DNA from: a virus
Reading direction: 5' to 3' (one strand)
Virus record (IMG/VR): IMGVR_UViG_3300012009_000091
Location: 32,001 to 96,000 of that record
DNA length: 64,000 bases
The stretch's first letter is position 1. Every line of letters starts with the position of its first letter. Of the stretch, positions 11,630-58,838 are shown in pieces. The notes beneath the pieces are model-generated. The model made no database searches. It was not told the DNA's origin and saw nothing but the letters and a program-made list of their open reading frames with translations. The position numbers and the translations under genes were made by a program.

Positions 11630-12382
11630 CTATACGACGTACTTGGCGACATCTTTGATGTAGCTGCTGATTTGACTGCCGGTGTATTGCGCCTGGATGT
11701 AATCCACGACCGCTTGGGCTCGAACCAGACTCCACACAAATTGGTAGTAGGGGTGCGTACCTTGAGCCAGTTTGTGGCCATTGGTGATCGATGGGTAGTC
11801 GTCAGTACGGCTGTCCAGTTTGCGGTTCACGTAGGACGGGTGCCATGTGATCATCGCTTCATATGTCAAGTTTCCCTTTACGCGACTAGGAATGGTAAAC
11901 GCGGCCACTTCTCCTCTTACACTGCCGATCGACACATTACCTAGAAGCGCTTTGGCCGCGTGGGTGCCCATAGCAATAATGAGAAGAGGGTCTACGTGGT
12001 AGATTTCTTCGTATAGTCGAGGTCGGCATGCTTTTACTTCGGCATCTGTTGGGGCGATGCTTTTTTTCCAATTGTCGTGATCGCACGGTCGACACATCAC
12101 CGCGTTGGTGATCCGAATGGAGCTTCTATCGATGTCGATAATGCTCAATACATCGTCGAGTAGCTCCCCTGATTGACCGGTAAATGGCATGCCAGTTTTC
12201 TCATCATGTCGTCCTGGGGCTTCCCCGATGATCATGATGTCGGCATTCAAATCACCTGCCCCCCAAACTGGAGGGCCTCTCCGTCTGGCCGCAATTTCGC
12301 AACGTTCACACTCTTCGTTCCAGCCCTCCTCATCCATCCAGGACTCGAACCGGTTGGGGTCCAGAATTCCTATGTTTTCCAT
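11630..12382 (-). CDS. udg: Uracil-DNA glycosylase family 4
   Basis: CERC, IIGEAPG, PFTGQSG, TNAVMCRP, TWHPSY. Confidence 0.92.
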   Translation of the reverse strand: MENIGILDPNRFESWMDEEGWNEECERCEIAARRRGPPVWGAGDLNADIMIIGEAPGRHDEKTGMPFTGQSGELLDDVLSIIDIDRSSIRITNAVMCRPCDHDNWKKSIAPTDAEVKACRPRLYEEIYHVDPLLIIAMGTHAAKALLGNVSIGSVRGEVAAFTIPSRVKGNLTYEAMITWHPSYVNRKLDSRTDDYPSITNGHKLAQGTHPYYQFVWSLVRAQAVVDYIQAQYTGSQISSYIKDVAKYVV

Positions 12383-13722
12383 GTGGTCCTCCTGATTTGA
12401 TATGCATAGCGAATACAGTTCCGTTCAAACCCACGAAAGGTGCGATTGAGCAGCGGAACGTCTGTGGGGTTGTAGGCGAAAACCATGGGTTGTTTCTTGT
12501 CAGGGTGCTCTCTGACGATTCTTCCTAGTCCTTGGATGAATCGCCGTGTCCCAGACCACGGCAGACAGATGTGTAGCGTGTCCAACTCCGGTTTATCGAG
12601 CCCTTCTGTTGCAATCGACGCGCTGGCGAGAATCGTGTCACATGTTGTGAGGATGTCTTGCCGTTTCTTTGCGTCCGTATCGCCGACGAGGACTTTTGAG
12701 TTCGGTATACGGTTGGACAAGAGACGCAACTGTTCGATTCGATCACTCAAGATTAATTGAAGTCGTCCGTTTTTTTGATTCTCTACAATGTAGTGGGTGA
12801 TAGCGTCGTTGATGCGGCTGGCCGCCACTTCGTTAATGGTGCGCGCACGTTCAGAATCTACACCAGCGTCGAAGGCAAAGATCCGCCGCTTCGCCAATGC
12901 GGATAATTGCGCTTCGACATCTACGATAGTGACCATCGGGTCTAGATCCGTCTCTTCACTTCGATAGATGACGCGGCCGATATGGTTCAAGAAAACTCTT
13001 TCTCGACCGGCCATCGCCACTGTTGCGCTGAGACCAACTCGAACACCGTTGCAGATTGGAAGGGCATGTCGAAATGATCGGCCTTGATAGTGGTGAACCT
13101 CATCGTAAATGGCCAATCCGAATTGCCCGCTGAGGTGTAGGCTTTTATCTCGATTGCGGGATAAAGATTGAGCCATACCGACTACCAGATCTTTTCCTTG
13201 CCAGGTCCACTTCCCTCGCTCCCCACCGATGCTCCCGATCTTCTCTTCTGGAAGCCCCATGAGTTGGACAGCCCCTTTTATCCATTGCGATTGGATAATG
13301 GCTGTGTTTACCACTACGAGTGTTGGAACTGCGTAGTGTTGCATGAGTTGATATCCAACGGCCGTCTTTCCTGTGCCTGGCGGTAACTCGATGATACCTC
13401 CTCCAGCTTCGAGGAGACAGTCAATTGCCTCGGCTTGTACGCGCTGAGCCCGCACTGATTTGGCGCCTTGTGGGCTTACGGAGCGCGTACAAGCCGCAAA
13501 GGCCACGGGGACTGGCGGATCCAGTCGATCTACTGGCAGACTGAGCTGCGCCATTGTTTCGTCTGTCAGTAACTCACGAGGTACTGCCCACACATCCCCC
13601 AGATCCCGGAATTCTTGAATGACCGTGTTGTCTGGATAAACACACGCTGCTTTGCGTTTCAAGAAGTGCGGATTGAGGGATCCTTTGGGAAAGTAGGCCC
13701 ATGACCCTTTGATGACCTTCAT
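12370..13722 (-). CDS. Superfamily 2 DExH helicase
   Basis: PPGTGKT, DEVHH, GLSAT, EGLDKPELD, QGLGRIVR. Confidence 0.92.
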   Translation of the reverse strand: MKVIKGSWAYFPKGSLNPHFLKRKAACVYPDNTVIQEFRDLGDVWAVPRELLTDETMAQLSLPVDRLDPPVPVAFAACTRSVSPQGAKSVRAQRVQAEAIDCLLEAGGGIIELPPGTGKTAVGYQLMQHYAVPTLVVVNTAIIQSQWIKGAVQLMGLPEEKIGSIGGERGKWTWQGKDLVVGMAQSLSRNRDKSLHLSGQFGLAIYDEVHHYQGRSFRHALPICNGVRVGLSATVAMAGRERVFLNHIGRVIYRSEETDLDPMVTIVDVEAQLSALAKRRIFAFDAGVDSERARTINEVAASRINDAITHYIVENQKNGRLQLILSDRIEQLRLLSNRIPNSKVLVGDTDAKKRQDILTTCDTILASASIATEGLDKPELDTLHICLPWSGTRRFIQGLGRIVREHPDKKQPMVFAYNPTDVPLLNRTFRGFERNCIRYAYQIRRTTWKT

Positions 13723-14219
13723 TTGATGTCCTTCTTAGTGAGCCAGTCATTTGTCAGTACCATCAAGCCGACTCCGTATGCTCCGTTCAGGAGCGCTTTT
13801 GTTTTATCGGCGATCCGGGCTTCCATCGGTCGTTTGCGCTCCGCGGGTTTCGACCGGCCGGTGAACAGTGTACTACTGATGTCCAGCAGAGTCTCGCGGT
13901 TCACCATTCGCTGGACCCGCCTTCTTCTTTTCTGATACTCGAACTCTTCGGCGTCCAGTTCATCCACCTCTTCTTCTTCGTCCTCCTCGTCCTCCTCGTC
14001 CTTCGCGTCCACAAGGACGTCTCCGTATTCTTCTTCCAGTAGGGCAAGCTCTTCCTCTAACTCGCGTTCCTTTTTTCTTTTGCGCCTTCGCCTGTGTGCT
14101 AGAGTCTCTCGAACAGATCGTCGATGTCGTTTTCGGCGACGTCTCTTCTGGGGACTTTCTTCGTTTTCGTCAAGGGCATCTGTGTCGTCTCCATACTTCG
14201 ACGTGTACCAGTCATTCAT
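13719..14219 (-). CDS. Highly charged protein with alternating Arg/Lys and Asp/Glu tracts
   Basis: GGAGG RBS; first gene of the minus-strand operon. Confidence 0.7.
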   Translation of the reverse strand: MNDWYTSKYGDDTDALDENEESPQKRRRRKRHRRSVRETLAHRRRRKRKKERELEEELALLEEEYGDVLVDAKDEEDEEDEEEEVDELDAEEFEYQKRRRRVQRMVNRETLLDISSTLFTGRSKPAERKRPMEARIADKTKALLNGAYGVGLMVLTNDWLTKKDIK

Positions 14220-14250
14220 AGCGTCGTAACCTCCGGTTTAGGTGCTGCCA

Positions 14251-14257
14251 CTTATAC
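14251..14257 (-). promoter_or_regulatory. GTATAAG motif, candidate phage-RNAP promoter for the replication operon
   Basis: 32 nt upstream of ATG 14219; the same heptamer lies upstream of other non-structural units. Confidence 0.7.
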
Positions 14258-14271
14258 GGAGTGTCCACTCG

Positions 14272-14300
14272 TTGACGCCCCTGATTTCTCAGGGTAAGCT
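14272..14300 (+). promoter_or_regulatory. Sigma70-type promoter for the first virion operon
   Basis: TTGACG (14272-14277), 17-nt spacer, TAAGCT (14295-14300), then GGAGG and ATG 14326. Confidence 0.7.
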
Positions 14301-14325
14301 GGGGATCGAATAACGGAGGATAGTC

Positions 14326-15429
14326 ATGCTTCAAGTAGATCCTTACGACGATAATCGAGAGCGGTTGAATCAACTTCCAGTCGAACTACGTGATGAATTG
14401 CTCAAAACAGGAGCAGATTTGACGTCGACACTCAATTCTCTTCCAGATGTTGACTTTGCTTTGGTCGTAGTGGCTCCCGGTGAGGACAATCGGATTCATA
14501 AGTTTCGGAAGTTTGCGTGTGTGGATGAGGGAAACACAGCCCAGTCCGTGTGGTACTTTTTACAGACGCGCAATCATCTGCCGGATGAGATGCGGAAGGT
14601 GGCTGCACAAAATCTTTTGCGAAGTGCGCGGGATTTTGAGCTCACCCCACCGCCCGATTTGGTGCTGTTGGCCGAAGAGGAAGATCCTTTGCCCGTCACC
14701 AATGTTGTTATCTCCTCTATGGACAAGATCGCGTCGTTTCTTCCTCCGCCAGAAACGGTGGAAAAGATCGCGTCCGAACCTGTTCCTGTGATCAACTGCA
14801 AAGAAGATGTCTTCGACGCTCTTGCTTACTACCACGACAACGCCTTTGCTTTGGATGGGTGGGAAAAGCAAGCACTGGCCCGTCTGCTCGTTCCAGCGGC
14901 CGAAAGATTCGAGGTATCTGTGCCGACGGAGATCGAAAAGCGCGCGGCAGATACCTATGCCGCGGATCTGGTGGAAGCCGTTGTGTGTCGTCAGGTTATG
15001 TTGGCTCCTGAGGATGACTCAGAAGAGTCTTTCCAGAAGGTCGCTCATGTGAACGGCCAGTATCAAAGTCTACTGTGGAGCCGAGCTGATATGGGCCCTA
15101 CCGAATTCGCGCATGAACTTGATCGGATCGACAGTCTGGCTCAACTAGACGGATTTGTTCCAGATGCGGTGTATTCGACCTTCGGGAAGGTTGCGCAAAC
15201 TCAGCCAGATCCTATTTTTGATAACGGGGTCAACAAGCTTTATGAGGACGAGCTCGTCTGGTTTTGTCAGAGCTATCCCAAGATGGTGGAAAACCAATTC
15301 GGAGAGGAGCTTGCAACCGCCATTCTGAAGAAGCCCGTTGTGATTTTTCAATCCCTACCGAAGCCAGTTCAGGTCGCGTTAGCTCGTCTGATTGCTCAGA
15401 AGAAGTCTGAGTACGGGGTTCAACTGTGA
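14326..15429 (+). CDS. Probable head/core protein with multiple KxA motifs
   Basis: RKVAA, DKIAS, EKIAS, EKRAA, QKVAH, GKVAQ; first gene of the virion operon. Confidence 0.6.
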   Translation: MLQVDPYDDNRERLNQLPVELRDELLKTGADLTSTLNSLPDVDFALVVVAPGEDNRIHKFRKFACVDEGNTAQSVWYFLQTRNHLPDEMRKVAAQNLLRSARDFELTPPPDLVLLAEEEDPLPVTNVVISSMDKIASFLPPPETVEKIASEPVPVINCKEDVFDALAYYHDNAFALDGWEKQALARLLVPAAERFEVSVPTEIEKRAADTYAADLVEAVVCRQVMLAPEDDSEESFQKVAHVNGQYQSLLWSRADMGPTEFAHELDRIDSLAQLDGFVPDAVYSTFGKVAQTQPDPIFDNGVNKLYEDELVWFCQSYPKMVENQFGEELATAILKKPVVIFQSLPKPVQVALARLIAQKKSEYGVQL

Positions 15430-16235
15430 CGAAGGACGCCAAACCGGAAGTTCGTGTTCTGACGATCCACGGCTGGTTGGACGATCTGGATACTCTTTTC
15501 CAGGATGTCCCCGAAGGGACAGTAGATGATTTTGAGATCGACGAAGATCCTGATGAGGATCTCGATCCAGGCGTGCCCGAAGTAGTCACTACAACGTTTA
15601 CGTTGACAGATCTAGAACCGACCACCCTTCTTTTTATTCTCCGACATCAATTCGGAAAAGATTGGTGGCAGCAAGATCGAGAAGCTCTGTTTGAGCTACT
15701 ACGCACTATCGGGCAGACGGTGGATGAGCCTGACAAAGACGCTATTCGTGCGCTGCAACTTCTTCATGTGGATGAGGCGTTTTGGACAGAGTGGGAAGTA
15801 TTTAACTGGATCACGCAGGGGCTGACCGACGGACAAGTCGATTTCACCAATCTGCCTGTTCTCTCGCTGAAAGACATCATGCGATCGATGTTGATGGCCA
15901 TGATCGTAGCACAGAGTCAAAAGGTAGAAGCACATTACAGCGAGGAGACTCTCTCGTACATTGCTGCAACGTGCGTGGAGCACGGTCTTTGGGCTTTGCC
16001 CTTCCCTATGGATGTGGCACAATCCCGCATTCAGCAGATCTTGAAGTGGCGGGGAGCGTCGGATCTGCCTATTGGTCACGTGAAGCAGCTCGTCAAAGAG
16101 AGTGCGACTCCTACGCCCGTAGACGAAGTGTCTACGCAAGCGTACCGATTCCGACTCCTCTTGGATTTTGCCATTCAAGGTCTGAAAGAGACGAAGTCGG
16201 AAATTGACGCTTACAGAGACGCAGTCAAGGAATAG
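15426..16235 (+). CDS. Hypothetical virion-module protein
   Basis: GTGA overlap with the upstream gene; precedes the portal candidate. Confidence 0.65.
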   Translation: MTKDAKPEVRVLTIHGWLDDLDTLFQDVPEGTVDDFEIDEDPDEDLDPGVPEVVTTTFTLTDLEPTTLLFILRHQFGKDWWQQDREALFELLRTIGQTVDEPDKDAIRALQLLHVDEAFWTEWEVFNWITQGLTDGQVDFTNLPVLSLKDIMRSMLMAMIVAQSQKVEAHYSEETLSYIAATCVEHGLWALPFPMDVAQSRIQQILKWRGASDLPIGHVKQLVKESATPTPVDEVSTQAYRFRLLLDFAIQGLKETKSEIDAYRDAVKE

Positions 16236-16238
16236 AAT

Positions 16239-18236
16239 ATGTTCGGATCTTCGGCCAGTCTTTCCTCTCCGATGACCCAGCGGCATAATACACGCGGCTC
16301 TGGGCGAATCGGGATTAACTACCCGAACCCCTTCTTTGATTTGTCGCAGATTTACCTACCCCAGAACATGCGCTCGTTGTTCAAGTGGTGTAGATACTAT
16401 GCACTCACGTACGGGCCCATTTTCGCGTTTGTCACCAAGATGGCCTCGTACGCATTGACTCGGTTAGTATGGGGAAGTGATGCCCAGGCAGACCCTGAAA
16501 GGAGGGCTAATCAGAATCTAGCGACGCAGTGGAAAGATTTCTTTGAAGATACGCTGCAGATCTACAAGGCGTGTTATCGAGGTGGGCTGCATTACTGGAC
16601 GTACGGTAATTGGTACTTGTCTATTCACTATCCGTTTGATCGGTGGCTCGCCTGTCCTTCATGTAAACATGAGATGCTGGCGAGAAGATTCCCCAAGAAG
16701 GGGTATCGGTGGCATAGTTACAAGTTCCACGGTAGGTGTACAGCATGCGGATCTGATGTGACTTTCAAAGTCAAGGATGTGCCAGTCCGTTCAAGCAAAC
16801 GCATCAAGCTCAAGCTGTGGAATCCCGAACGTGTGTATCCAGTCGTCAATGAAGCGACGGACGATGTGGAATACTACTATAAGCCGACTCAACAGCTCAT
16901 CAAACGTATCGATCGAGGCGATCGGAAAGTCGTAGAAACTACGCCTTGGCCTTTTATTCAAGCGGCTAAGAAAAATAAAGACGGGTTGGTCAAGTTCAAC
17001 AATCGGAACTTCTTGCACATCTCCGCTCCATCACCCGACGGAAACGAGACGGGGATGGGGCACCCGCCGATACTAGCGGCCATCAAGGATGTGTTTCACT
17101 TACAGTTGATGAAGAGGGCACAGGAGGCTAATGCTGTAGAGCGGACTATTCCTCTTACCGTAGTGCACCCTCTCCCGATGGGAGATGATACGATCAATCC
17201 TCTTCAGTCCACGAATTTAGTCAACTTGATGGACTTCCTCAAAGATGAGGTGGCGATCGCGCGCCGAGATCCCAACTACATTCCATTTTCTCCTCTTCCT
17301 GTCGGCACGTCGCATATCTGGGGAGAAGGGAAGAATCTCCTCCTCGTCCCGGAGATTCGTGGGTGGACCGAGTTGATTGCAGCTGATCTCGCGGTGCCCA
17401 TTGAGTTTATGTTTGGCGGGATGCAATGGTCAGGGTCCAACGTCAGCTTGCGTATGCTCGAGAATCAGATCCTGACTTTCACGACTGGGTACAAGCAGGT
17501 CACTAGGTTCGTCACCAAAGCTGTGGCTAGATTCTTATGGTGGCCTGAGTGTCCGCATGACTGGACTCCGTTCAAAATGGCCGATGACATACAGCTCAAG
17601 CAGCACATGTTGATGTTGTCGCAGCTGAACAAGATTGGTGATTCTACTCTACTCTCTCACTTCGGGAAGAACCCTGTCGATGAAAAAGCCGACATCGAAG
17701 CTAGCATGAAGCAAGCGAATCGCATCGCAAAAGATCAGTTGCTTGCTCAAGCGGAGGCTCAGGTTGAGGCCATGGAGATGCAGCAGAATGCTCAGATGGA
17801 GATGCAGCAACAGCAGAGTACGGGACTTCCTACCGAAACCAGTCAGGCTGCGGCGGGAGCGCCACCTCCTGTGCAAGAGGAGGAATCACAAGAGGAGTTT
17901 GCATATCGTATGGCGGAGCAGCTTGTGAATCAGTCTGAAGATGTGATCCAGCAGACGTTACAACAGGTGTCTGCTCAGTCTCCAGAATTAGCTCAGTTCA
18001 TCTATCAGTTGATTCAACAGCTTCGCGCGGAGACGCAGCAGCCTGTGCAATATGGTCAGCAGCCTGCCCAACAGCCTGCCCAACAGCCTGCTATGGGCGG
18101 ATACAATCAAGCTCAGGTTGTTAGCGGTCCAGAAGGCCAGCTACATCAACAATATGCAGCATCGACTCGACAGATGATGCAGCCTCAACCGCAGATGCGT
18201 CCTCCACAGCGGGGACCTGCTAGTACAGCAATCTGA
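16239..18236 (+). CDS. Probable portal protein with zinc-ribbon insert and Gln-rich tail
   Basis: Portal-like layout (YGNWYL, WNPERV, GHPPIL, LAVPIEFM); CPSC/CTAC insert. Assigned from pattern and context. Confidence 0.65.
   Translation: MFGSSASLSSPMTQRHNTRGSGRIGINYPNPFFDLSQIYLPQNMRSLFKWCRYYALTYGPIFAFVTKMASYALTRLVWGSDAQADPERRANQNLATQWKDFFEDTLQIYKACYRGGLHYWTYGNWYLSIHYPFDRWLACPSCKHEMLARRFPKKGYRWHSYKFHGRCTACGSDVTFKVKDVPVRSSKRIKLKLWNPERVYPVVNEATDDVEYYYKPTQQLIKRIDRGDRKVVETTPWPFIQAAKKNKDGLVKFNNRNFLHISAPSPDGNETGMGHPPILAAIKDVFHLQLMKRAQEANAVERTIPLTVVHPLPMGDDTINPLQSTNLVNLMDFLKDEVAIARRDPNYIPFSPLPVGTSHIWGEGKNLLLVPEIRGWTELIAADLAVPIEFMFGGMQWSGSNVSLRMLENQILTFTTGYKQVTRFVTKAVARFLWWPECPHDWTPFKMADDIQLKQHMLMLSQLNKIGDSTLLSHFGKNPVDEKADIEASMKQANRIAKDQLLAQAEAQVEAMEMQQNAQMEMQQQQSTGLPTETSQAAAGAPPPVQEEESQEEFAYRMAEQLVNQSEDVIQQTLQQVSAQSPELAQFIYQLIQQLRAETQQPVQYGQQPAQQPAQQPAMGGYNQAQVVSGPEGQLHQQYAASTRQMMQPQPQMRPPQRGPASTAI
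18060..18092 (+). repeat. 12-bp tandem repeat encoding QQPA x3
   Basis: CAGCCTGCCCAA units in the portal C-terminus. Confidence 0.75.
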
Positions 18237-21200
18237 TGCAAGAGATATATAATTTCGATCAAATCAAAGAATCGGTTCAGGAGGCTCTCGGCCAGATTTT
18301 TCCTGTCGCTGGAAGAAACTTGGTTGTCGATCTCAATTCTCTTGATATACGAGATCGGAAGAATCCCGCATCGGTTCATGAGCAGTACGGAGCGTTGACG
18401 TCAGGTCGTTCGTGGACCATCCCGGTCTATGCCAACGTTACGCTTCGCGGCCCGGACGGGGAGTTGGATCGAGGACGGGTTAAAGTACTTGAACTTCCGA
18501 AACTGACCGAGAGAAATACGTTTATCGTCGATGGGAACGAACGTCAGTTGCACAGTGTGCTTCGACGGAAATCCGGAGTGTACACGCGACATGATGAAGT
18601 GGGGGACCTTGTTTCCGAGTTCAATTTGGATAACGGTCTGCATGAGGGAGGAAAGACTGACCGAGGTCGGAAGTTCGCCATACATTTCGACAACACGACC
18701 AACCAGTTCTACACACGTTTAGGTGGAAAGAAGAAAATCAATGCCTACACGCTTCTCGAGTCTCTGGGTCACGATATGGAGGGTCTCCGACAGCGCTTTG
18801 GGGATGAGATCCATTCGAAGAATCTCAAACGGACGTCGAAGAAGATCAAGCAAGATGTTTCGAAGATCTATGACACGATCTACGGATCGAAGGCCAAATC
18901 AGGATTGACTTCAGACCAGATGCGGCAACAGATCCAAGAGGCTTTCCGTAGAACGAAAGTAGATCCGGATACGACTAAAGTTACCCTTGGTACGCCAGCC
19001 GATTCCATTGACTCTAACATCCTCGTGAGAAGCATGGACAAGTTGTTGAACATCTCTCGCGGTCAGGAGAAGGAAGATGATCGTGAGAGTTTGGTGTTCA
19101 AGAAGGTCGTGTTCCCCCCGCAATTGATTGCGGAACGTGTGTCGCATCACCGCAACATCGAGCAGATTCGAGGGAAGATTCGGGCCAAGCTCAATGTCCG
19201 CGGTCGTGGTCGGAAATCACCTGAGCGAGTTGGCGAAGCTGTACCTACGCGCTTGTTGGATAAACCTTTACATGATCTCTTCGCTGAGTCGACCGAATCC
19301 GATCTGGTTGATCAACCTAACCCTGTAGGGATTGCGTCGGGCTACAATCGGATCAGCATGTTGGGTACAGGTGCAATTCGGTCTCTTGATCAGATCCCAT
19401 CAAGTGCTCCTCTGATTTCTCCGTCTCACTTAGGATATATTGATCCGCTACATACTCCAGAGTCGCATAAGGCCGGCGTGTCTGTACATCTCCCGATGAA
19501 CACCAAGATGGGAGAGGACAAACGCCTCGTTTCTCGTATGTTGACTCCGGATGGAGAGGAGAAGTGGGTAGCCGCGGAAGACGCTGCTCAAGCGGTGGTT
19601 GCTGCTCCTGATAGTTACGATATGCGTAGCGGTCGTCCTGTGCCCCGCGGTAAGACTGTTCAAGTTCAGCGAAATGGAGAGATTGAAGACGTCGATCCGA
19701 CTGAAGTAGATTACATCATCCCTCATGCGCGTGATGTGTTCGATGTTGCTACGAACTTGGTGCCTTATCTTCAGAACAACCAAGGGAATCGCGCGATGAT
19801 GGCCGGAAAACATGCTACTCAGGCGCTTCCCTTGAAATACAGAGATACTCCTCCAATTCAAACAGGAATCGAAGGAGATTTAGGCGAGACTGCCGGTGCA
19901 CGGAGGTCGCCTGTTTCAGGGCGTGTTTCTGATATCACTGAAGTGGATGGCGCGTATGAAATCCGCATCCAAGAATCAGGAAAGACCCGTCCGACCATCG
20001 TTCGTGCGTATCGCAACTATCCCATGGCGAAAGGCGTGGTGATGGATTCAGACTTGAAGGTCCAACCAGGGGACTCAGTCAAAACGGGTGATCTTCTAGC
20101 GGATTCGTCTTTCACCAAGGATGGTATGCTGTCTATGGGGACGCCTCTTCGTACAGCTTACATGCCTTGGTATGGCAGGAACTTTGAGGATGGGGTCGTC
20201 ATTTCGGATCGGGCCGCAGACCAGCTCACGTCTCTTCATCTCCATGAAAAGTCAAAGTATGAACCTGAGGCTATCAGTGATAAAACTCGGTTTCTGGATT
20301 GGTATCGGGCTCGATTTCAATCGCAAGATGAGATCAATGCTCTTGATGGAAGTGGTGTGATTCAGAAAGGGCAGACTGTCCAACCTGGTCAGATCCTGAT
20401 GGCTCGACTCAAACAGGTCGAGCGAGATAGTGAGGAAGCTAGACTTCGCAAACGGATGAAGCTAACGCCGTTTGATCCAGTCGTCATGACCTGGGATAAG
20501 GAGGTGCCGGGGACAGTCACTGATGTTCGGAAGAACCGAGACGGTACTGTCCGCGTCTTTGTGAAGACCGAAGAGAAGATGCGGGAAGGAGACAAGCTGG
20601 TCAGCCGCAATGCAAATAAAGGGATTGTGGTGAAGATCCTACCTGACGCAGAGATGCCACAAACAAAAGACGGGAAGCAAGTGGATGTTCTCTTGTCACC
20701 ATTAGGTATTCCTAGTCGCATTAATCTAGGACAAGTACTTGAGACGGCGGCGTCCAAAGTCGTAGAGAAAACAGGGAAACCGATCAATCTGTCGGATCAG
20801 ATGTTTGGCCCCAATAGCGATATTAAACATGTCCAACGATTACTGAAAGACGCTAAAATCACTGATACAGAAGAGCTGGTCGATCCTACTCGAGGGAACA
20901 AATCATTCGGGAAGGTTTTTACTGGTCCACAGTATTTCTATAAGTTGGAACATCAAGTCGCAAAGAAAGAGCGCTCTCGAGGACAAGGAAAATATGATCG
21001 ATGGGATGTGCCTGCAGGGGGAGATGGAGGCGCGCAGACCATCGGAGAGTTAGGCACGTACGCCATGTTGTCTCATGGGGCGGTTGAGAATCTACGGGAC
21101 ATGCAGCTCTACAAATCTCAGAAGAATGATGAGCTCTGGGATGCTTTGATCCACGGCCAACCTATCCCGCCTCCTAAACACATTACGCCCAATGTGCGCT

Positions 21201-24200
21201 TCGAGTCTTTATTGCGTACTGCTGGGGTGAAGTTGAAGAAAGGGGATACACTCAGTTTGATCCCACAGACCGACGAGCAGACCGAAAAGCTGGCTCGGGG
21301 ACGTCCTCCGCTGGAGGACGCCGGACGGATGTATGCGTTTCAACGAGATCGGGTTGTGGAAGAGCCTGAAGGCCTGTTTGATCCTGTCAAGACTGGTGGG
21401 TCAGAGGGAGATAGGTGGAGTTACTTTCGGCTTCCGGAACCGATTCCCAATCCAATGTTTGCTCCGGCTATTTCGTCTTTGACGGGTTGGTCTGAGTCTA
21501 CACTCAAACGGGTGGTCGAGGGTAAACAGGAATATGGGGGTTTGATCGGTGGACCGGCGGTCGCGAAGCGCCTTGAGGAGGTAGATCTGGATGCGGAAGA
21601 AGCGAAGCTTCGGGAGCAAGCCCAGAGTGTACAAGGAAGAAAACGCCTCAACATGGAGAACAAAGCCAAGGAGTTGAGTCGGATCTATCGGAGACTTCGG
21701 TATGTAACGGCTTTGAAAGGTCGGGATCTTCGTCCTGAGAAAGTGTATATGATGCAGAATGTTCCTGTTCTGCCGCCAAAGTTGCGTCCTGTTATCGCTC
21801 TTAGTAGTGGGGAGCGGTCGGCTGACGACATGAACAACCTTTATCGAGATCTTGCGCTGGTTTCGAATACTATGAAGGAGAGTCAAGAGCGGGGGGTCTC
21901 TCCTAAGCACCTGCAGCCTTTGCGTGGCGCCTTGTATGATGGCCTCTCTGCTTTGATCTCTGCTAAGAGTGGGGATCGCCCGTTGAGTGGGGCATACAGA
22001 GGGGTCATTGGTTCTATCTCCGGTAAACGCCCTGTAGAGGAGGGAAAAGGCGAAGTAGGGCAGGCCAAAGGCGGATTATTTCAAGATCAAATCACGCGTC
22101 GTCGACAGGATTTCTCAGCTCGGACGACGATCACGGTTGAACCTCGACTCGAGATTGATCAGATTGGTATGCCCTTCAAAATGGCGTACGAGATTTATTC
22201 TCCGTGGGCACAAAAGCGGTTGCGGGAAAAGTATGGGTACGCTACTCGAGACGCGCGTAAGTACTATGAAGAGAAGGGCCCTGATGATCCGCGTGTACGG
22301 GACGTTCTCTCTGATGCGGTAGCCGAGCGGCCTTCACTTGTCAAACGGGATCCCGCTTTGCACAAATTCAACGTGATGGCTTTCAATCCAGTTCTGGTGG
22401 AAGGCAGTGCATTACAAATCCACCCGTTGGTGACCGGAGGATTCAATGCGGACTTTGATGGCGATACGATGTCCGTATACGTGCCTGTGAAAGAGGAGGC
22501 GGTTGAAGAGTCTTATAAGATGTTGCCTTCTAACAACATCTACAATCCGACAAACGGCAAGTTGATGTACGCCCCGAGTCAAGAAATGGTTTGGGGCTTA
22601 CACAGTCTCACTAGCGTAGGAAAGAAGACCAATTGGAAGTTTGGATCTCGCAAAGCAGCGGAAAGCGCGTTGAATCGTGGGGATGTTCACCAAACAGATC
22701 GCATCAAAATAGGCACGCGTGAGACAACTTTAGGGTGGGAAAAAATCAACGACATTCTCCCCGGCCGGTTTCGTTTCAAAGGGTCTTTGGACAATCGAAA
22801 GCCACTTGACAAGCATCGAATTTCTGACTTGTTGAGTAAGGTCGCTGCAAAGGAACCTGAAACATTCGCCCCACTGGTAAACACTCTCAAGGATGTCGGT
22901 AATCAAAACGCTACAGAAGATGCGTCGTCTTTTTCTCTGAAAGACTTTGATGTGGTAGGTCAGGAGTTCCGAGATCGCACTTTTCGGGAAGCCGAAGAAA
23001 AGGCATCTCGAAGTAAAGATCCACTTGGCGTGCTGTCTGATGCGCTCAAGAAAGTTGATCGACACACTCTTGAAGTGCTGAGTTCGCAAAAGAAGCCGAA
23101 TGCGATCTTTCAAATCGTCACGTCGGGATCGAAGGCCAGTTGGCCTCAGCTCAAGCAAATTGTCAGTGCTCCTGCATTGGTGTACGACACTCAAAATCGA
23201 ATTGTCCCGCGATTGATCAAAAAGTCGTACAGTGAAGGTTTACCGTTGATGGATTATTGGACGGGTCTCCACGGAGCCCGAAAAGGGGCTATCAATAAGT
23301 CCATCTCGACGTCCCGTCCCGGATATCTTGGGAAACAGGTGATGCGGTCTGTGATTGATCAGGTTGTTGTGGAAGATGATTGCGGAACGCGACAAGGTCG
23401 ATCGATGTCGCCGGATGATCCAGAAGCGGTTAATCGGTATTTGGCGTCCGGTATTCGAGTTCAGGGCGGGAAGCGAGATCGGAATTTCAATCGTAATTCG
23501 GTGGTAACGCCGAACATAGTGTCCTCTCTTCGTGCCCACAAGACCCCTTCGATACATGTACGATCTCCCATGCGATGCGAAAGTACGGACGGTGTGTGCG
23601 CTAAGTGTATGGGGTTGGACGAGGAAGGACGGGATTATGCCGTTGGAACGAATGTCGGTGTTCAGGCCGCTCAAGGAGTAGGGGAGCCGTCGACGCAGTT
23701 GTCATTGAATGTATTTCATACCGGTGGGGTGGTAGAGGATCCCAATATTCCTGTTGAGAGCGATCGTCTGCAGCGTGCTGAACACTTGTTGCGGCTTACT
23801 CAACGAATCCCCAATAGTGCTGTGCTCTCTCCGAGATCTGGAAAGATCGAAGGAGTACGAGAAGCTCCTCAGGGAGGACATGAGGTTAAGATCGATGGAA
23901 AAGAGATCTACATTCCCCATGAGAAGAAGTTGTTCGGCAGTATCAAACCGGGTCAGGAGATAGGCAAAGGCGATCCGATGACAGCGGGGCCCATCCATCC
24001 GCTCGAGGTATTGAAGTACAAAGGTACGTATGCCGCGCAGGATACTCTCGCGGATCAATTGTACGACCTCTATAAGGGTGCTCGTGGCACCAAGAAGAAA
24101 CACTTTGAGGTGATCGTACGAGGGATGTCCAAGAACACACAGGTATTGGATCCAAAGGACTCTGAGTGGGAGTCTGGACAAGTGACGTCATTGACGAAAG

Positions 24201-24478
24201 TTAAGAAACATAATCGAGAAGCAGGGAAAGACCAGCGGGTCAAACATCTGCCTATCATGCGTGGAATTGGGACGTCTCCCCTGTTGTCTGAAGATTGGAT
24301 AGCTCGGCTCAATGGAGAGCGACTTCGGAGTACTATCGTAGGGGCGGCCACTCAAGGTTGGGAATCTCAGGCGCACAGTACTCACCCTATCCCCGCGATG
24401 ACTTTTTTGAATGAAGAAGAGCTGTCGGAAGAGTCAGGCTTTGGGCGGCCTATCCAACCGATACGATCTCCGTATTAG
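18236..24478 (+). CDS. rpoBC: Single-chain two-barrel DNA-directed RNA polymerase (beta-beta' fusion)
   Basis: Beta motifs TFIVDGNER, IDPLHTPES, GNRAMM, YGRNFED, GDKLVSRNANKG, PLGIPSRINLGQ, YKLEH, GAQTIGE; then beta' motifs VLPPKLRP, RRQDFSAR, RDPALH, NADFDGD, HGARKG, GEPSTQLSLNVFH, KHFEVIVR. Confidence 0.97.
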   Translation: MQEIYNFDQIKESVQEALGQIFPVAGRNLVVDLNSLDIRDRKNPASVHEQYGALTSGRSWTIPVYANVTLRGPDGELDRGRVKVLELPKLTERNTFIVDGNERQLHSVLRRKSGVYTRHDEVGDLVSEFNLDNGLHEGGKTDRGRKFAIHFDNTTNQFYTRLGGKKKINAYTLLESLGHDMEGLRQRFGDEIHSKNLKRTSKKIKQDVSKIYDTIYGSKAKSGLTSDQMRQQIQEAFRRTKVDPDTTKVTLGTPADSIDSNILVRSMDKLLNISRGQEKEDDRESLVFKKVVFPPQLIAERVSHHRNIEQIRGKIRAKLNVRGRGRKSPERVGEAVPTRLLDKPLHDLFAESTESDLVDQPNPVGIASGYNRISMLGTGAIRSLDQIPSSAPLISPSHLGYIDPLHTPESHKAGVSVHLPMNTKMGEDKRLVSRMLTPDGEEKWVAAEDAAQAVVAAPDSYDMRSGRPVPRGKTVQVQRNGEIEDVDPTEVDYIIPHARDVFDVATNLVPYLQNNQGNRAMMAGKHATQALPLKYRDTPPIQTGIEGDLGETAGARRSPVSGRVSDITEVDGAYEIRIQESGKTRPTIVRAYRNYPMAKGVVMDSDLKVQPGDSVKTGDLLADSSFTKDGMLSMGTPLRTAYMPWYGRNFEDGVVISDRAADQLTSLHLHEKSKYEPEAISDKTRFLDWYRARFQSQDEINALDGSGVIQKGQTVQPGQILMARLKQVERDSEEARLRKRMKLTPFDPVVMTWDKEVPGTVTDVRKNRDGTVRVFVKTEEKMREGDKLVSRNANKGIVVKILPDAEMPQTKDGKQVDVLLSPLGIPSRINLGQVLETAASKVVEKTGKPINLSDQMFGPNSDIKHVQRLLKDAKITDTEELVDPTRGNKSFGKVFTGPQYFYKLEHQVAKKERSRGQGKYDRWDVPAGGDGGAQTIGELGTYAMLSHGAVENLRDMQLYKSQKNDELWDALIHGQPIPPPKHITPNVRFESLLRTAGVKLKKGDTLSLIPQTDEQTEKLARGRPPLEDAGRMYAFQRDRVVEEPEGLFDPVKTGGSEGDRWSYFRLPEPIPNPMFAPAISSLTGWSESTLKRVVEGKQEYGGLIGGPAVAKRLEEVDLDAEEAKLREQAQSVQGRKRLNMENKAKELSRIYRRLRYVTALKGRDLRPEKVYMMQNVPVLPPKLRPVIALSSGERSADDMNNLYRDLALVSNTMKESQERGVSPKHLQPLRGALYDGLSALISAKSGDRPLSGAYRGVIGSISGKRPVEEGKGEVGQAKGGLFQDQITRRRQDFSARTTITVEPRLEIDQIGMPFKMAYEIYSPWAQKRLREKYGYATRDARKYYEEKGPDDPRVRDVLSDAVAERPSLVKRDPALHKFNVMAFNPVLVEGSALQIHPLVTGGFNADFDGDTMSVYVPVKEEAVEESYKMLPSNNIYNPTNGKLMYAPSQEMVWGLHSLTSVGKKTNWKFGSRKAAESALNRGDVHQTDRIKIGTRETTLGWEKINDILPGRFRFKGSLDNRKPLDKHRISDLLSKVAAKEPETFAPLVNTLKDVGNQNATEDASSFSLKDFDVVGQEFRDRTFREAEEKASRSKDPLGVLSDALKKVDRHTLEVLSSQKKPNAIFQIVTSGSKASWPQLKQIVSAPALVYDTQNRIVPRLIKKSYSEGLPLMDYWTGLHGARKGAINKSISTSRPGYLGKQVMRSVIDQVVVEDDCGTRQGRSMSPDDPEAVNRYLASGIRVQGGKRDRNFNRNSVVTPNIVSSLRAHKTPSIHVRSPMRCESTDGVCAKCMGLDEEGRDYAVGTNVGVQAAQGVGEPSTQLSLNVFHTGGVVEDPNIPVESDRLQRAEHLLRLTQRIPNSAVLSPRSGKIEGVREAPQGGHEVKIDGKEIYIPHEKKLFGSIKPGQEIGKGDPMTAGPIHPLEVLKYKGTYAAQDTLADQLYDLYKGARGTKKKHFEVIVRGMSKNTQVLDPKDSEWESGQVTSLTKVKKHNREAGKDQRVKHLPIMRGIGTSPLLSEDWIARLNGERLRSTIVGAATQGWESQAHSTHPIPAMTFLNEEELSEESGFGRPIQPIRSPY

Positions 24479-24487: not shown

Positions 24488-26185
24488 GTGCCACAATCGA
24501 GAATACAGCAGCGTGATCGAACGTCGAGACGACAGCCTCCTGCAGCTATCTCTAAGGGCCGGATTCGAGATGTGCATCCTAGATATTGGACGGTAGATGT
24601 GGAGCTCGAGAATGGCGCATTCATCGAGAGCGCACCTGTGGTCTCTCCGTATTTTCACCAGGAAAATGGAGAAGGGTTCAGCGCTCTTCCGGAAATAGGG
24701 GCTCACTGTCTTCTCCTTACTGGTACCGCAGAGGGGTATGAACCGGCGGTGTTAGCGTTCACGCCGCTTCGATCCACGGAGTATCAAGAATCTGAGGAAC
24801 CAGAAGAAGATCATAGTGCTGGGCGAGGTCCTGCTGTCCCTGGGGATATTTACATCCACGGCCGAGATGAGAATTTCGTACGGCTTCGACGTGGGGGAGT
24901 TGTAGAGATCGGGGCGGATGAAGGCACTCGCTCTTGGTACATTCCATTTGGCAATCTCATTCGGCATATCTGCGCTAACTATGAGCTGTCTGTCAGCGGT
25001 TCGGTGGCGCGGATCAATACCCTCGATTCGCCGGAGATCCCGGAAGAGGGGCCGACCCCTCTTCAACTCGATCTGAGATTGCAAGAGTACGTCGAGAAAG
25101 CCCCTCTCATCGACTTGAAAATGGGACACGTGGTGGATGACGAGGGGAGGTCCTTGGCGGCCAATCAGGGGGATATCGTTGCGCGTATGTTGGTGTTTGA
25201 TCAAACAACCGCAGATGCTGCTCAGCGGGATGGCATTGATCCTAGTCCGGATCAAGCCGCTGTGGCGATTCGTTTTGATAAGAACGGAAATGCTGAGCAG
25301 ATCATGTCGGGTCAGTGGCTCGTGCAAGCAGCTGGTCGCCGTCTGTACCTGACCGATTCCGATGTTCAATTAGTCCGAGGAAATCGACGTGAGGAGATCA
25401 CGGGAAATGCAGACCGTCATATCGGAGGCGATGTTATCGATCGTGCTGATGGTTCGCGGGTGATTCAATCACGAGGCCCCTTGACGATCAGTTGTGAACA
25501 ATTACAGATCGAAGAACAGCGAGCGCGACAGACTTCGATGGCCGGGAATCGAGGTACTATTGTAGGTGGGAATTCGGAAGATCAGGTCGCGGGTGATCGA
25601 ACTACTGGATCGGGTGGTGGGGTCAACGATACGTGTTTGGGGAATCGAGCTGTTACTACTGGTGGGAAGGTCATCGAGACAGTGTTGCATGCAGCAGAAC
25701 CGACTAGCATGTTGCAGGGTGCTGTAGCACATCTACTCGACGTCCTGGACGGCACGATTCGTCAAAAAGCGCGGCTGGGAAATATAGAGCTCGAGGTTGG
25801 TCCTCTCGGCTCTCCGATTTGTAAAATTACAGTACACAACAACCCCACACAACCTACAGAGATAGGACGTGTTTCTATTACCTGGGCGAACCCTGCTATG
25901 AAGTTGATTATCGACGGGTTGACGGGAGCGGCCACATTTACGAATATGATAGGGGAGTGGACACTGGGTGCTGACGGTCGGCAGTATGTCGGCCCTCGTG
26001 GTGGAAGCGGGCCTGGTGCAGGGAATGTCGTGACGACGAATACACATCCGTTCTGTTACGTAACCGGCGCGCCCATTATTGGGTGTTCAGGCTCTACTGC
26101 TGCTGGGGTTCCGGCGCCAGGTCCAGCTGCTCCGGTAGTAGGGCCAGCGGATAACATTCCTGATCCTGACATACCGAGGCCGTGA
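24488..26185 (+). CDS. Baseplate central spike (gpV/gp5-like)
   Basis: N-terminal OB-fold pattern (GRIRDV..WTVDV, PEIG), VGGN/GNR beta-helix repeats, C-terminal HPFCYVTG. Confidence 0.7.
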   Translation: MPQSRIQQRDRTSRRQPPAAISKGRIRDVHPRYWTVDVELENGAFIESAPVVSPYFHQENGEGFSALPEIGAHCLLLTGTAEGYEPAVLAFTPLRSTEYQESEEPEEDHSAGRGPAVPGDIYIHGRDENFVRLRRGGVVEIGADEGTRSWYIPFGNLIRHICANYELSVSGSVARINTLDSPEIPEEGPTPLQLDLRLQEYVEKAPLIDLKMGHVVDDEGRSLAANQGDIVARMLVFDQTTADAAQRDGIDPSPDQAAVAIRFDKNGNAEQIMSGQWLVQAAGRRLYLTDSDVQLVRGNRREEITGNADRHIGGDVIDRADGSRVIQSRGPLTISCEQLQIEEQRARQTSMAGNRGTIVGGNSEDQVAGDRTTGSGGGVNDTCLGNRAVTTGGKVIETVLHAAEPTSMLQGAVAHLLDVLDGTIRQKARLGNIELEVGPLGSPICKITVHNNPTQPTEIGRVSITWANPAMKLIIDGLTGAATFTNMIGEWTLGADGRQYVGPRGGSGPGAGNVVTTNTHPFCYVTGAPIIGCSGSTAAGVPAPGPAAPVVGPADNIPDPDIPRP

Positions 26186-58276: not shown

Positions 58277-58283
58277 CTTATAC
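58277..58283 (-). promoter_or_regulatory. GTATAAG motif overlapping the upstream stop codon
   Basis: 32 nt upstream of ATG 58245. Confidence 0.6.
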
Positions 58284-58760
58284 GACTTGCTGGATGTATT
58301 CGATGGGCGGCTCATGGTAAATGTTCCAGTGGTATAACAGCCGTTGTTTGTCTGCCATCCGTGGATTTTTCAACCGACCAGGATACCGACCGTCTCGTAC
58401 CCAAGCTTCCATCAATTCACGGGCAACTAGGATAACACCTGGTTCGTTCTCCAGCTCTTCTTCTGCCTCTTGGACAGCCTGGACGATTGTCGGGGTCAAT
58501 ACGTATTGAACTCGATGGATGGAGAACATCTTTGTGTTGTCCACTTCAGATTTCTTGCCGAGGGATAGCGCAATGCGGCGCTCTCGAGATACTCCAGGAA
58601 CAGTGATCCATTGTCCTGTTGCCAAGTCTTGTTTGTTGAAGCGGTATGAATGCTCCGAACTGAAGTTGGCAATCCAGAATCCCGCGCGTGTGCCGTTGTC
58701 TCGATTTTCCCTTACGCTCATATCTACCCAAATTTTGGGCATTTGATCTAGAGGTCTCAT
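58278..58760 (-). CDS. Hypothetical protein
   Basis: AAGGAG RBS; GTATAAG upstream. Confidence 0.7.
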   Translation of the reverse strand: MRPLDQMPKIWVDMSVRENRDNGTRAGFWIANFSSEHSYRFNKQDLATGQWITVPGVSRERRIALSLGKKSEVDNTKMFSIHRVQYVLTPTIVQAVQEAEEELENEPGVILVARELMEAWVRDGRYPGRLKNPRMADKQRLLYHWNIYHEPPIEYIQQVV

Positions 58761-58798
58761 TTCTATTCTCCTTTGTATTAGATGCGGACCGTCTTTGA

Positions 58799-58805: not shown

Positions 58806-58810
58806 TAAGA

Positions 58811-58831: not shown

Positions 58832-58838
58832 CCTACGG

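What the first reader, a model, noticed from the sequence alone, without database searches (positions are those of the whole stretch)
18236..24478. Compact single-chain beta-beta' RNA polymerase embedded between portal and spike genes
Seen: all core beta then beta' motifs in one 2080-aa chain. The beta' N-terminal zinc ribbon is deleted (EGLFDPVKTGGSEGDRWSYF), while the second zinc site, flap, clamp coiled-coil, bridge helix and trigger loop remain. No alpha, omega or sigma gene is recognisable in the window. Its ATG overlaps the portal stop (TGATG). Established: phage multisubunit-type RNAPs are known (split subunits in phiKZ-like phages, divergent single chains in crAss-like phages), and beta-beta' fusions occur in a few bacteria. 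Inference: a late-expressed, virion-packaged, alpha-independent enzyme that stays recognisably cellular in sequence.
Basis: partly seen in the sequence, partly recalled or inferred. Interest (0 to 1): 0.8.

Follow-up and report, generated by a model that had tools for sequence, protein, structure and literature searches.

The report
Single-chain phage RNA polymerase beside portal
A complete 167-kb uncultured phage encodes both large subunits of a bacterial-type RNA polymerase as one 2080-residue protein right after its portal gene. It has its own sigma factor elsewhere in the genome and no alpha or omega, and it belongs to a large, barely studied phage lineage that probably carries the enzyme in the virus particle.

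Summary
Window 18236-24478(+) is one 2080-aa ORF with beta then beta' domains. The catalytic residues, bridge helix, trigger loop, second zinc site and clamp coiled-coil are kept. The beta' N-terminal zinc ribbon and the E. coli insertions SI1-SI3 are missing.

The upstream gene folds as a portal and the downstream gene is a gp5-type spike. This portal-RNAP-spike order recurs in most of 81 related loci.

The complete genome has no alpha or omega. It does encode a divergent sigma-70-family factor at genome 9459-10178, outside the window, and 13 of 15 large relatives have a homologue.

The enzyme is about 28% identical to any bacterial RpoB/RpoC. In a tree, 23 bacteria from more than ten phyla fall on one side and all the phage enzymes on the other.

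Relatives number more than 1300 proteins and more than 546 IMG/VR stretches. The cultured distant relatives are Vibrio phages D69/D148/D181 and Salmonella phage Arash. In Arash, published virion proteomics detected the RNAP, its sigma and the portal.

Virion delivery here is therefore plausible but inferred. This scan already met the same family on several other genomes. I rate it a new variant of a known kind.

The parts
16239..18236 (+). Portal protein gene (665 aa). Its stop overlaps the RNAP start codon. It carries a near-invariant 4-Cys insert (C139, C142, C167, C170).
   Evidence: AF2 model pLDDT 76.5. All top Foldseek PDB hits are phage portals, E down to 6e-9, prob 1.00. Homologous to Arash gp204 portal (E 4e-75) and to the D69 upstream ORF (E 5e-77). 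Found upstream of the RNAP in 63 of 81 related loci.
18236..24478 (+). Single-chain beta-beta' RNA polymerase gene (2080 aa, P0001).
   Evidence: Pfam Rpb2_3, Rpb2_6, Rpb1_1 to Rpb1_5 in order. PDB sequence hits to bacterial beta' at E 1e-107. BLASTP to E. coli RpoB/RpoC gives 26-29% identity.
18236..21247 (+). Beta moiety (about residues 1-1004). It lacks E. coli SI1 and SI2. Holds the rifampicin-pocket region (residues 348-376), the flap, and active-site lysines K787/K795.
   Evidence: Alignment to E. coli RpoB. Ec H526 is Gly (G369) here and in 38 of 43 family rows.
21248..24478 (+). Beta' moiety (about residues 1005-2080), joined directly to the beta C-terminus without a linker domain. It lacks SI3.
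   Evidence: The junction aligns Ec beta C-terminus with P0001 about 1004 and Ec beta' N-terminus with P0001 about 1005.
21356..21487 (+). Site of the deleted beta' N-terminal zinc ribbon (residues 1041-1084; GLFDPVKTGG..DRWSYF).
   Evidence: Ec beta' residues 64-88 with C70/C72/C85/C88 are gapped in all 43 phage rows.
21800..21985 (+). Clamp coiled-coil (residues about 1189-1250), the sigma region-2 docking site in bacterial RNAP.
   Evidence: Aligned to Ec beta' 255-320. The surface residues differ from E. coli.
22445..22465 (+). Catalytic NADFDGD motif (N1404-D1410).
   Evidence: Invariant in the family.
23234..23815 (+). Bridge helix (about 1667-1705), second zinc site (C1716, C1781, C1788, C1791) and trigger loop (about 1802-1860, H1828) with no SI3-type insert.
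24488..26185 (+). gp5-type baseplate central spike gene (565 aa), starting 9 nt after the RNAP stop.
   Evidence: PHROG 430 at E 5e-5. Family profile versus PDB hits the T4 gp5 beta-helix at E 8e-7. Pfam Gp5_trimer_C or Phage_base_V in 6 and 4 of 18 homologues. Found downstream of the RNAP in 41 of 81 loci.
14326..16235 (+). Two conserved genes of unknown function (367 and 269 aa) that open the plus-strand block portal-RNAP-spike.
   Evidence: Homologues lie upstream of the portal in 29 and 28 related loci. No Pfam or PHROG hit.
14251..14257 (-). GTATAAG promoter-like motif in the divergent gap, pointing leftwards to the replication genes. It is a candidate phage-specific early/middle promoter class.
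   Evidence: There are 32 copies in the genome, mostly intergenic, and always co-oriented with the next gene, in about half of the copies 20-50 nt before its start. There are 10 in the window against 2.5 +/- 1.5 expected. None lies on the plus strand inside the structural block. The motif is kept at the same place in the 61% relatives L002 and L003.
12370..13722 (-). SF2 (ResIII/DEAD) helicase gene, a conserved neighbour on the opposite strand.
   Evidence: Pfam ResIII at 1.7e-17. Homologue upstream in 27 loci. Arash has helicases gp197/198 in the same position.

Best explanation
The ORF encodes a working, minimised bacterial-type RNA polymerase core in which beta and beta' are one polypeptide. 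There is no alpha dimer and no omega, so the covalent link most likely replaces alpha's role as assembly scaffold. Promoter recognition most likely comes from the phage's own sigma-70-family protein (genome 9459-10178, outside the window), which would dock on the retained clamp coiled-coil and flap. The gene is translationally coupled to the portal gene and sits in a conserved portal-RNAP-spike block, so it is made with the particle proteins. By analogy with the cultured relative Arash, the enzyme and its sigma are then packed into the virion and injected with the DNA. There they would start transcription of the non-structural genes from a phage-specific promoter class (candidate motif GTATAAG), independently of the host polymerase and probably insensitive to rifampicin. 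Shown: gene structure, motifs, neighbours, the sigma gene, absence of alpha and omega, family size, and the position outside sampled bacteria. Inferred: sigma-RNAP pairing, alpha independence in vivo, virion delivery, the promoter assignment, and rifampicin insensitivity.
For: Intact single frame with invariant catalytic residues across 43 diverged family members. All Pfam RNAP domains in order. Only one RNAP gene in the complete DTR genome. No alpha (PF01000, PF01193) or omega (PF01192), with positive controls ringing in 14 of 14 genomes. Sigma: Pfam Sigma70_r3 is above its cut-off. The family profile hits solved SigA/RpoS/RpoD/FliA at E down to 5e-14 over sigma2-sigma4. For the AF2 model (pLDDT 82), all top Foldseek hits are sigma factors. 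Homologues occur in 13 of 15 large relatives. It is homologous to Arash gp10 (E 3e-14). TGATG start/stop overlap with a structurally confirmed portal. Portal-RNAP-spike synteny in most of 81 loci, and also in cultured D69 and Arash. No terminator-like or sigma-70-promoter-like excess inside the block. Arash virion mass spectrometry: RNAP Gp206 3516 spectra (the highest of all), Gp216 1210, sigma Gp10 467 with 100% coverage, portal Gp204 877 (PMC10585845). GTATAAG motif distribution. Ec H526 is replaced by Gly in 38 of 43 rows.
Against: No experiment exists on this phage or on any fully fused member. Arash is only about 29% identical and has a split gene. Its virion preparation also yielded 116 proteins, including ribonucleotide reductases, a primase and kinases, and its authors themselves raise carry-over of abundant proteins. 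The RNAP has no N-terminal leader and no excess of the [ES]KxA motif that earlier notes on this genome link to head loading (2 observed, 1.2 expected; sigma has 0). Any packaging route is therefore unknown. Host alpha, omega or sigma binding is not excluded, and I could not test the alpha-contact surface. The link between GTATAAG and this polymerase is circumstantial, and the motif is not shared by the wider family.
Confidence: 0.6

Rival explanations
1. Non-virion polymerase. The enzyme is made during infection and transcribes middle or late genes inside the cell, as the phiKZ/AR9 non-virion RNAPs do. Host RNAP reads the early genes. The position next to the portal is inherited gene order without functional meaning.
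For: No leader or processing motif suggests capsid loading. The Arash virion list is long and contains obvious non-structural enzymes, so RNAP detection could be carry-over. GTATAAG resembles a -10 element that a host sigma-70 enzyme might read.
Against: The gene is coupled to the portal gene and lies in a block without the early-type motif. A polymerase needed for middle genes would then be made too late. In Arash the RNAP gave the highest spectral count of all proteins, and sigma had 100% coverage. The adjacency is kept over very deep divergence (25-30% identity). GTATAAG sites have no -35 element, and both flanking G residues are invariant.
Confidence: 0.25
2. Hybrid enzyme. The fused chain recruits host alpha dimer, omega and/or host sigma, so it is not self-sufficient.
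For: The fold is bacterial-type throughout and keeps the flap, clamp coiled-coil and second zinc site. To my knowledge, bacterial beta-beta' fusions (Helicobacter, Wolbachia, and the artificial E. coli fusion) still use alpha. A natural fusion also turned up in a Paceibacterota MAG.
Against: Hosts across this family must be very diverse (GC 32-61%, many environments), while the enzyme is only about 28% identical to any bacterium. That makes conserved docking of host subunits unlikely. The lineage keeps its own sigma. Clamp coiled-coil surface residues differ from E. coli. Known phage multisubunit RNAPs work without alpha (PMC7598289).
Confidence: 0.12
3. Recent capture of a host rpoBC operon that fused in the phage.
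For: Sequence is clearly bacterial-type. The best PDB and GTDB matches are bacterial RpoB/RpoC.
Against: The best bacterial identity is only 27-32%, with no preferred phylum. In the tree, 23 bacteria from more than 10 phyla form one side of a branch (SH-aLRT 100, length 0.78) with every phage enzyme on the other side. The zinc-ribbon deletion and other features are shared family-wide.
Confidence: 0.03

Closest known systems
RNA polymerase of Salmonella phage Arash (Gp206 + Gp216, sigma Gp10; Yousefi et al. 2023, PMC10585845) and of Vibrio phages D69/D148/D181 (GenBank OZ195729 and others)
   Same: Homologous enzyme (26-30% identity over up to 97% of P0001). A homologous portal lies immediately upstream. 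A homologous sigma-70-family factor is present. All are large phages of 167-187 kb; Arash is a myovirus, and this phage has a gp5-type spike and a baseplate wedge gene. No alpha or omega is annotated in the regions I read.
   Different: In those phages the chain is broken after about residue 1500 of the fusion, inside beta', by inserted DNA: homing endonucleases in D148/D181 and about 4.7 kb of opposite-strand genes in Arash. They also carry a second, more canonical sigma. Here the whole enzyme is one ORF and only the divergent sigma is found. In my tree the split forms are one derived subclade among fully fused forms. The Arash paper reports the virion proteome but does not analyse the polymerase.
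mReC, multisubunit-RNAP-encoding Caudovirales (Weinheimer & Aylward 2020, PMC7481178)
   Same: Uncultured tailed phages, many of 100-300 kb. Their beta and beta' are still alignable with cellular enzymes and branch outside cellular clades.
   Different: mReC entries list separate beta (about 960-1490 aa) and beta' (about 900-1370 aa) proteins, some in two sets, and no fusion is described. Their marker proteins are MCP PF07068/VOG11186 and TerL PF03237/VOG01069. Here TerL matches PF05876/phrog_675, and the capsid protein matches only phrog_2522. I could not retrieve mReC sequences to place them in the tree.
phiKZ / AR9-type jumbo-phage multisubunit RNAPs (Sokolova et al. 2020, PMC7598289; Iyer et al. 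2021, PMC7824862)
   Same: Phage-encoded two-barrel RNAPs without alpha or omega. One set is virion-packaged and transcribes early genes.
   Different: Those enzymes are split into 4-5 polypeptides, come as two paralogous sets, are far more divergent, and have no sigma-70-family factor. Here there is one set, one chain and a sigma.
Single-chain two-barrel phage RNAPs: crAss-like gp66, YonO, P23-45 gp64/gp96 (PMC10770324; bioRxiv 10.1101/2020.03.07.982082)
   Same: Both barrels lie in one polypeptide. gp66 and gp96 are virion proteins injected to read early genes.
   Different: Those are so divergent that only the DxDxD region aligns, and they belong to the other major clade of two-barrel RNAPs. 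Here every cellular domain is recognisable by Pfam.
Bacterial beta-beta' fusions (Helicobacter, Wolbachia, from my own knowledge; a 2284-aa fused ORF in a Paceibacterota MAG, L142)
   Same: Same topology: the beta C-terminus runs into the beta' N-terminus.
   Different: The bacterial fusions keep alpha and omega genes and, in the Helicobacter and Wolbachia enzymes as I recall them, the zinc ribbon and lineage insertions. L142 groups with other CPR bacteria, not with the phage enzymes.

Membership tests
Bacterial-type multisubunit RNAP core (beta/beta') | Two double-psi beta-barrels: beta' NADFDGD Mg site and two beta lysines | tested here: met
   D1406/D1408/D1410 and K787/K795 are invariant in 43 rows. 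Pfam Rpb1_2 and Rpb2_6 hit.
Bacterial-type multisubunit RNAP core (beta/beta') | Bridge helix, trigger loop, C-terminal zinc site, clamp coiled-coil, flap | tested here: met
Bacterial-type multisubunit RNAP core (beta/beta') | Beta' N-terminal zinc-binding domain (Ec C70/72/85/88) | tested here: not met
   Deleted in all 43 phage rows.
Bacterial-type multisubunit RNAP core (beta/beta') | Alpha dimer and omega as partner subunits | tested here: not met
   No PF01000, PF01193 or PF01192 match at E<=1 in the complete genome, while controls ring in 14 of 14 genomes. Use of host subunits is not testable here.
Bacterial-type multisubunit RNAP core (beta/beta') | Sigma-70-family initiation factor | tested here: met
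   The 239-aa ORF at genome 9459-10178 hits Pfam Sigma70_r3 at 27.6 bits against a 25.3 cut-off. Its profile hits solved sigma factors at E 5e-14, and the fold search returns only sigma factors. Physical pairing with this RNAP was not tested.
Arash/D69-type phage RNAP lineage | RNAP gene immediately downstream of a homologous portal gene | tested here: met
Arash/D69-type phage RNAP lineage | Homologue of the Arash Gp10-type sigma | tested here: met
   E 3e-14 to Arash gp10. Found in 13 of 15 relatives.
Arash/D69-type phage RNAP lineage | RNAP and sigma present in purified virions | not testable with these tools
   Shown only for Arash by mass spectrometry (PMC10585845).
mReC (Weinheimer & Aylward 2020) | Caudovirales contig with beta and beta' detectable by cellular profiles, clustering apart from cellular homologues | tested here: met
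   The tree contains bacteria only, with no archaeal or eukaryotic rows.
mReC (Weinheimer & Aylward 2020) | Shared MCP (PF07068/VOG11186) and TerL (PF03237/VOG01069) families | tested here: not met
   TerL hits PF05876 and phrog_675. The capsid protein has no Pfam hit and only phrog_2522. VOG profiles were not available.
phiKZ/AR9-type phage RNAPs | Beta and beta' each split into several polypeptides; two paralogous sets (virion and non-virion) | tested here: not met
   One ORF and one match in the genome.
crAss gp66 / YonO-type single-chain RNAPs | Extreme divergence: cellular RNAP profiles do not detect them | tested here: not met
   Seven Pfam RNAP domains are detected, the best at E 3e-51.

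The most novel reading that the evidence does not exclude
This lineage runs a self-sufficient two-protein bacterial-type transcription machine: a single-chain beta-beta' core plus one sigma, with no alpha, no omega and no zinc ribbon. The machine is loaded into the particle next to the portal and injected, so the phage never needs the host polymerase for its first genes. The enzyme also descends from a branch outside all modern bacterial phyla. That would make it the smallest natural 'cellular-type' holoenzyme and a widespread one.
Probability: 0.4. Interest if true: 0.8.

Novelty: new variant of a known kind. Interest (0 to 1): 0.6.

Why it matters
If the fused chain plus its sigma is active alone, it is a natural minimal version of the bacterial transcription machine. 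It would show that alpha, omega and the beta' zinc ribbon are dispensable once beta and beta' are tethered. It would also give a compact, probably rifampicin-insensitive, sigma-programmed polymerase for structural work and for orthogonal gene expression. The family is abundant in metagenomes from many environments, so host-independent early transcription by an injected cellular-type enzyme may be a common phage strategy that has gone almost unstudied. Its position outside sampled bacteria also bears on the debate over the origin of phage RNA polymerases.

Tried and rejected
- **Portal by sequence:** Pfam and PHROGs gave nothing for the 665-aa protein, and a profile search of PDB sequences hit only zinc-ribbon noise. 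Only the fold search settled it.
- **Weak Sigma70_r4 hit:** the match at genome 104880 is an XRE-type HTH protein, not a sigma.
- **D69's annotated sigma:** it has no homologue in this genome.
- **Host-type promoter before the block:** a TTGACG-N17-TAAGCT that I saw by eye fails the scan's criteria. The block has fewer sigma-70-like sites than shuffles (4 against 10.9 +/- 3.2) and no terminator excess.
- **Capsid-targeting or protease motif [ES]KxA:** it is not enriched in the RNAP, sigma, portal or spike. One copy falls at the beta/beta' junction (EKLA, residue about 1017), but it is not conserved in the family, so I make nothing of it.
- **Synteny around the sigma gene with Arash:** no detectable homology of the flanking genes.
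- **mReC in the tree:** the sequences could not be fetched by name, and a scan with a compact stand-alone beta' (P0132) returned one fragment.
- **T7-type RNAP search:** it found nothing, but its control did not ring either, so it is uninformative.
- **Literature:** searches for a description of the fully fused family found none. This does not prove that none exists.
- **First tree run:** the first treekit run timed out in MAFFT. The tree reported uses an FFT-NS-i alignment and a quick LG+G4 search.


Full report
**What is there**

Window 18236-24478(+) is one open frame of 2080 codons. Its ATG shares its A with the TGA of the preceding 665-codon ORF, giving TGATG. The next ORF starts 9 nt after its stop.

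Pfam finds Rpb2 domains 3 and 6 in the first half. It finds Rpb1 domains 1, 2 and 5 above their cut-offs in the second half, and domains 3 and 4 below them. BLASTP against E. coli RpoB and RpoC, taken from NC_000913, gives 26-29% identity over most of both proteins. The best solved relatives are all bacterial beta' chains, with E about 1e-107.

The window is bases 32001-96000 of a 167,069-bp IMG/VR virus record with direct terminal repeats, rated 100% complete. That record holds only this one RNAP match.

**Anatomy**

I aligned 42 family members with concatenated E. coli beta+beta'. The main points are these.

- **Subunit sizes.** The beta part is about residues 1-1004 and the beta' part about 1005-2080.
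- **Junction.** The beta C-terminal helix runs straight into the beta' N-terminus.
- **Invariant residues.** The NADFDGD aspartates (D1406/1408/1410), beta lysines K787/K795, trigger-loop H1828 and the four cysteines of the second zinc site (C1716/1781/1788/1791) are the same in all rows.
- **Other retained elements.** The bridge helix, flap and clamp coiled-coil are present.
- **Missing parts.** The beta' N-terminal zinc ribbon (Ec 64-88) is absent in every phage row, as are E. coli SI1, SI2, SI3 and two shorter segments.
- **No additions.** There is no insertion of 15 residues or more relative to E. coli, so this is a purely reduced enzyme.
- **Rifampicin pocket.** Ec H526 is glycine here and in 38 of 43 rows. 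S531 is mostly Thr and I572 is Ser or Thr. Substitutions at H526 are classical rifampicin-resistance changes, which is established knowledge, so I infer that the enzyme is insensitive.

**Neighbours**

The 665-aa upstream protein had no Pfam, PHROG or PDB-sequence match. An AlphaFold model built on 35 homologues reached pLDDT 76.5. Foldseek against the PDB returned only phage portal proteins at the top, with prob 1.00 and E down to 6e-9. The protein also carries a near-invariant four-cysteine insert.

The 565-aa downstream protein matches PHROG 430 weakly. A profile of 18 homologues hits the T4 gp5 spike beta-helix at E 8e-7. Several homologues carry Gp5_trimer_C or Phage_base_V.

'Between portal and spike' is therefore correct. 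The block contains no excess of terminator-like or sigma-70-promoter-like sites.

**Family and synteny**

A search of 5.8 billion proteins gave 1312 hits among the candidates scored. The best 120 were all 1762-2828 aa long and carried both beta and beta' domains. They came from contigs of up to 200 kb, and some carry intein or LAGLIDADG domains. Short hits were mostly fragments.

IMG/VR held at least 546 matching stretches. In 81 loci the order was 367-aa gene, 269-aa gene, portal, RNAP, spike, 635-aa gene, then TerL. Portal homologues lay upstream in 63 loci, spike homologues downstream in 41, and TerL in 34.

No GenBank phage is close. The best matches are Vibrio phages D69/D148/D181 and Salmonella phage Arash at 26-30% identity. 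Both D69 and Arash have a homologous portal directly upstream. In both, the polymerase is broken after about residue 1500 by inserted DNA.

**Not a captured host operon**

A scan of 185,579 GTDB species representatives returned only ordinary rpoB-rpoC operons at 27-32% identity. They came from many phyla, and there was no prophage copy.

I built a maximum-likelihood tree with 60 rows, 1930 columns, LG+G4 and a quick search. It puts 23 bacteria from more than ten phyla on one side of a branch (SH-aLRT 100, length 0.78) and all phage enzymes on the other. The split D69-type enzymes form one subclade among fully fused forms, so fusion looks ancestral and splitting secondary.

The tree has caveats. 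It has no archaeal outgroup and no mReC or phiKZ rows. Compositional heterogeneity was flagged in 26 rows, and the model is site-homogeneous.

**Partner subunits**

Pfam models for alpha (PF01000, PF01193) and omega (PF01192) find nothing in the genome at E<=1, while they ring in all 14 control genomes. Sigma70_r2 finds nothing either.

Weak r2 matches in two relatives led to a homologous 239-aa ORF at genome 9459-10178, which lies 22 kb before the window's start. The evidence that this is a sigma factor is as follows.

- It scores above the Pfam cut-off for Sigma70_r3 and matches many NCBIfam sigma models below threshold.
- A profile of ten homologues hits solved SigA, RpoS, RpoD and FliA at E down to 5e-14, across regions 2 to 4.
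- Its model (pLDDT 82) retrieves only sigma factors.
- Homologues occur in 13 of 15 large relatives.
- It is homologous to Arash gp10.

The sigma gene lies in another plus-strand block of large genes. That block includes a baseplate wedge protein. So the enzyme is alpha-less and omega-less, but very probably sigma-dependent.

**Virion delivery**

I read the paper. Mass spectrometry of Arash particles found RNAP Gp206 with the highest spectral count (3516), Gp216 with 1210, sigma Gp10 with 467 and 100% coverage, and portal Gp204 with 877.

This is the only experimental support for packaging, and it is imperfect. 116 proteins were detected, among them clear non-structural enzymes, and the authors mention carry-over.

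In this genome the RNAP has no N-terminal extension. It shows no excess of the [ES]KxA motif that other notes tie to head loading. I therefore put virion delivery at about 55%.

**Promoters**

GTATAAG occurs 32 times in the genome. It is mostly intergenic and always co-oriented with the downstream gene; in about half of the copies it lies 20-50 nt before the start codon. It has no -35 partner. In the window it occurs 10 times against 2.5 +/- 1.5 expected.

The motif is absent from the plus strand of both structural blocks, including those holding the RNAP and sigma genes. One copy, at window 14251(-), points to the replication genes: an SF2 helicase, a DnaB-like helicase and a family A DNA polymerase. 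That copy is kept in the 61%-identical relatives.

This fits a non-structural promoter class read by the injected holoenzyme, but the link is circumstantial.

**Comparison with the literature**

- **mReC** (PMC7481178) are phages with cell-like but separate beta and beta' genes, and with different capsid and terminase families.
- **phiKZ/AR9 enzymes** are multiply split, duplicated and sigma-less (PMC7598289, PMC7824862).
- **crAss gp66, YonO and P23-45 enzymes** are single-chain but belong to the other, highly divergent clade.

I found no paper describing the fully fused family. This scan has already reported the same family on several other genomes.

**Verdict**

This is a real, almost certainly functional gene. 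It is a new variant (single-chain, sigma-partnered, alpha- and omega-less) of the known kind 'phage-encoded cellular-type RNA polymerase'. It is interesting mainly because the family is large and biochemically untouched.

Noticed in passing
genome G000:C1:9459-10178 (+), 22 kb before the window start (L091:9459-10175): Divergent sigma-70-family gene (239 aa) inside a block of large structural genes. It is conserved in 13 of 15 large relatives and homologous to the virion-detected Arash Gp10.
   Followed up: yes
window 16239-18236, residues 139-170 of the portal: Near-invariant CxxC...CxxC insert in the portal family, predicted as a small beta-rich module. A zinc ribbon in a portal is unusual and its role is unknown.
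   Followed up: partly
whole genome; window 1621, 14251, 35410, 37737, 58277-59139, 60232, 62975: GTATAAG promoter-like motif: 32 copies, co-oriented with downstream genes and absent from the plus strand of the structural blocks. It looks like a distinct non-structural promoter class.
   Followed up: partly
window 40650-43340 (+): An 896-aa ORF with Hint/intein-splicing and LAGLIDADG matches at residues about 160-550. It is an intein-bearing gene in the head-gene region, and the host protein is not identified.
   Followed up: no
relatives P0005, P0041, P0093, P0094, P0104, P0117; loci L011, L039, L040, L045, L068: Some family RNAPs are 2400-2830 aa long and carry LAGLIDADG or intein domains. 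Some portal homologues are 1070-1950 aa. Mobile inteins seem to target both genes repeatedly.
   Followed up: no
L005 (Vibrio phage D69) 16527-17166; L185 (Arash) 13521-18292: In the cultured relatives the polymerase is interrupted at the same point (about P0001 residue 1492-1500, inside beta') by unrelated inserts: small ORFs or homing endonucleases in the Vibrio phages, and 4.7 kb of opposite-strand genes in Arash. This looks like a hotspot for mobile DNA. I did not examine whether any insert is a self-splicing intron.
   Followed up: no
L142 162-7014 (Candidatus Paceibacterota MAG): A natural 2284-aa fused rpoB-rpoC ORF in a CPR bacterium. In the tree it groups with other CPR bacteria, not with the phage enzymes.
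   Followed up: partly
window 12370-13722 (-): An SF2 (ResIII/DEAD) helicase is kept next to the portal-RNAP block on the opposite strand in 27 loci and in Arash. This recalls the Rad25-like helicase that tracks the RNAP genes in phiKZ-type phages (PMC7824862).
   Followed up: no
window 21284-21295 (P0001 residues 1017-1020, EKLA): One of only two [ES]KxA motifs in the RNAP falls exactly in the beta/beta' junction. It is not conserved in the family, so it is probably chance.
   Followed up: partly
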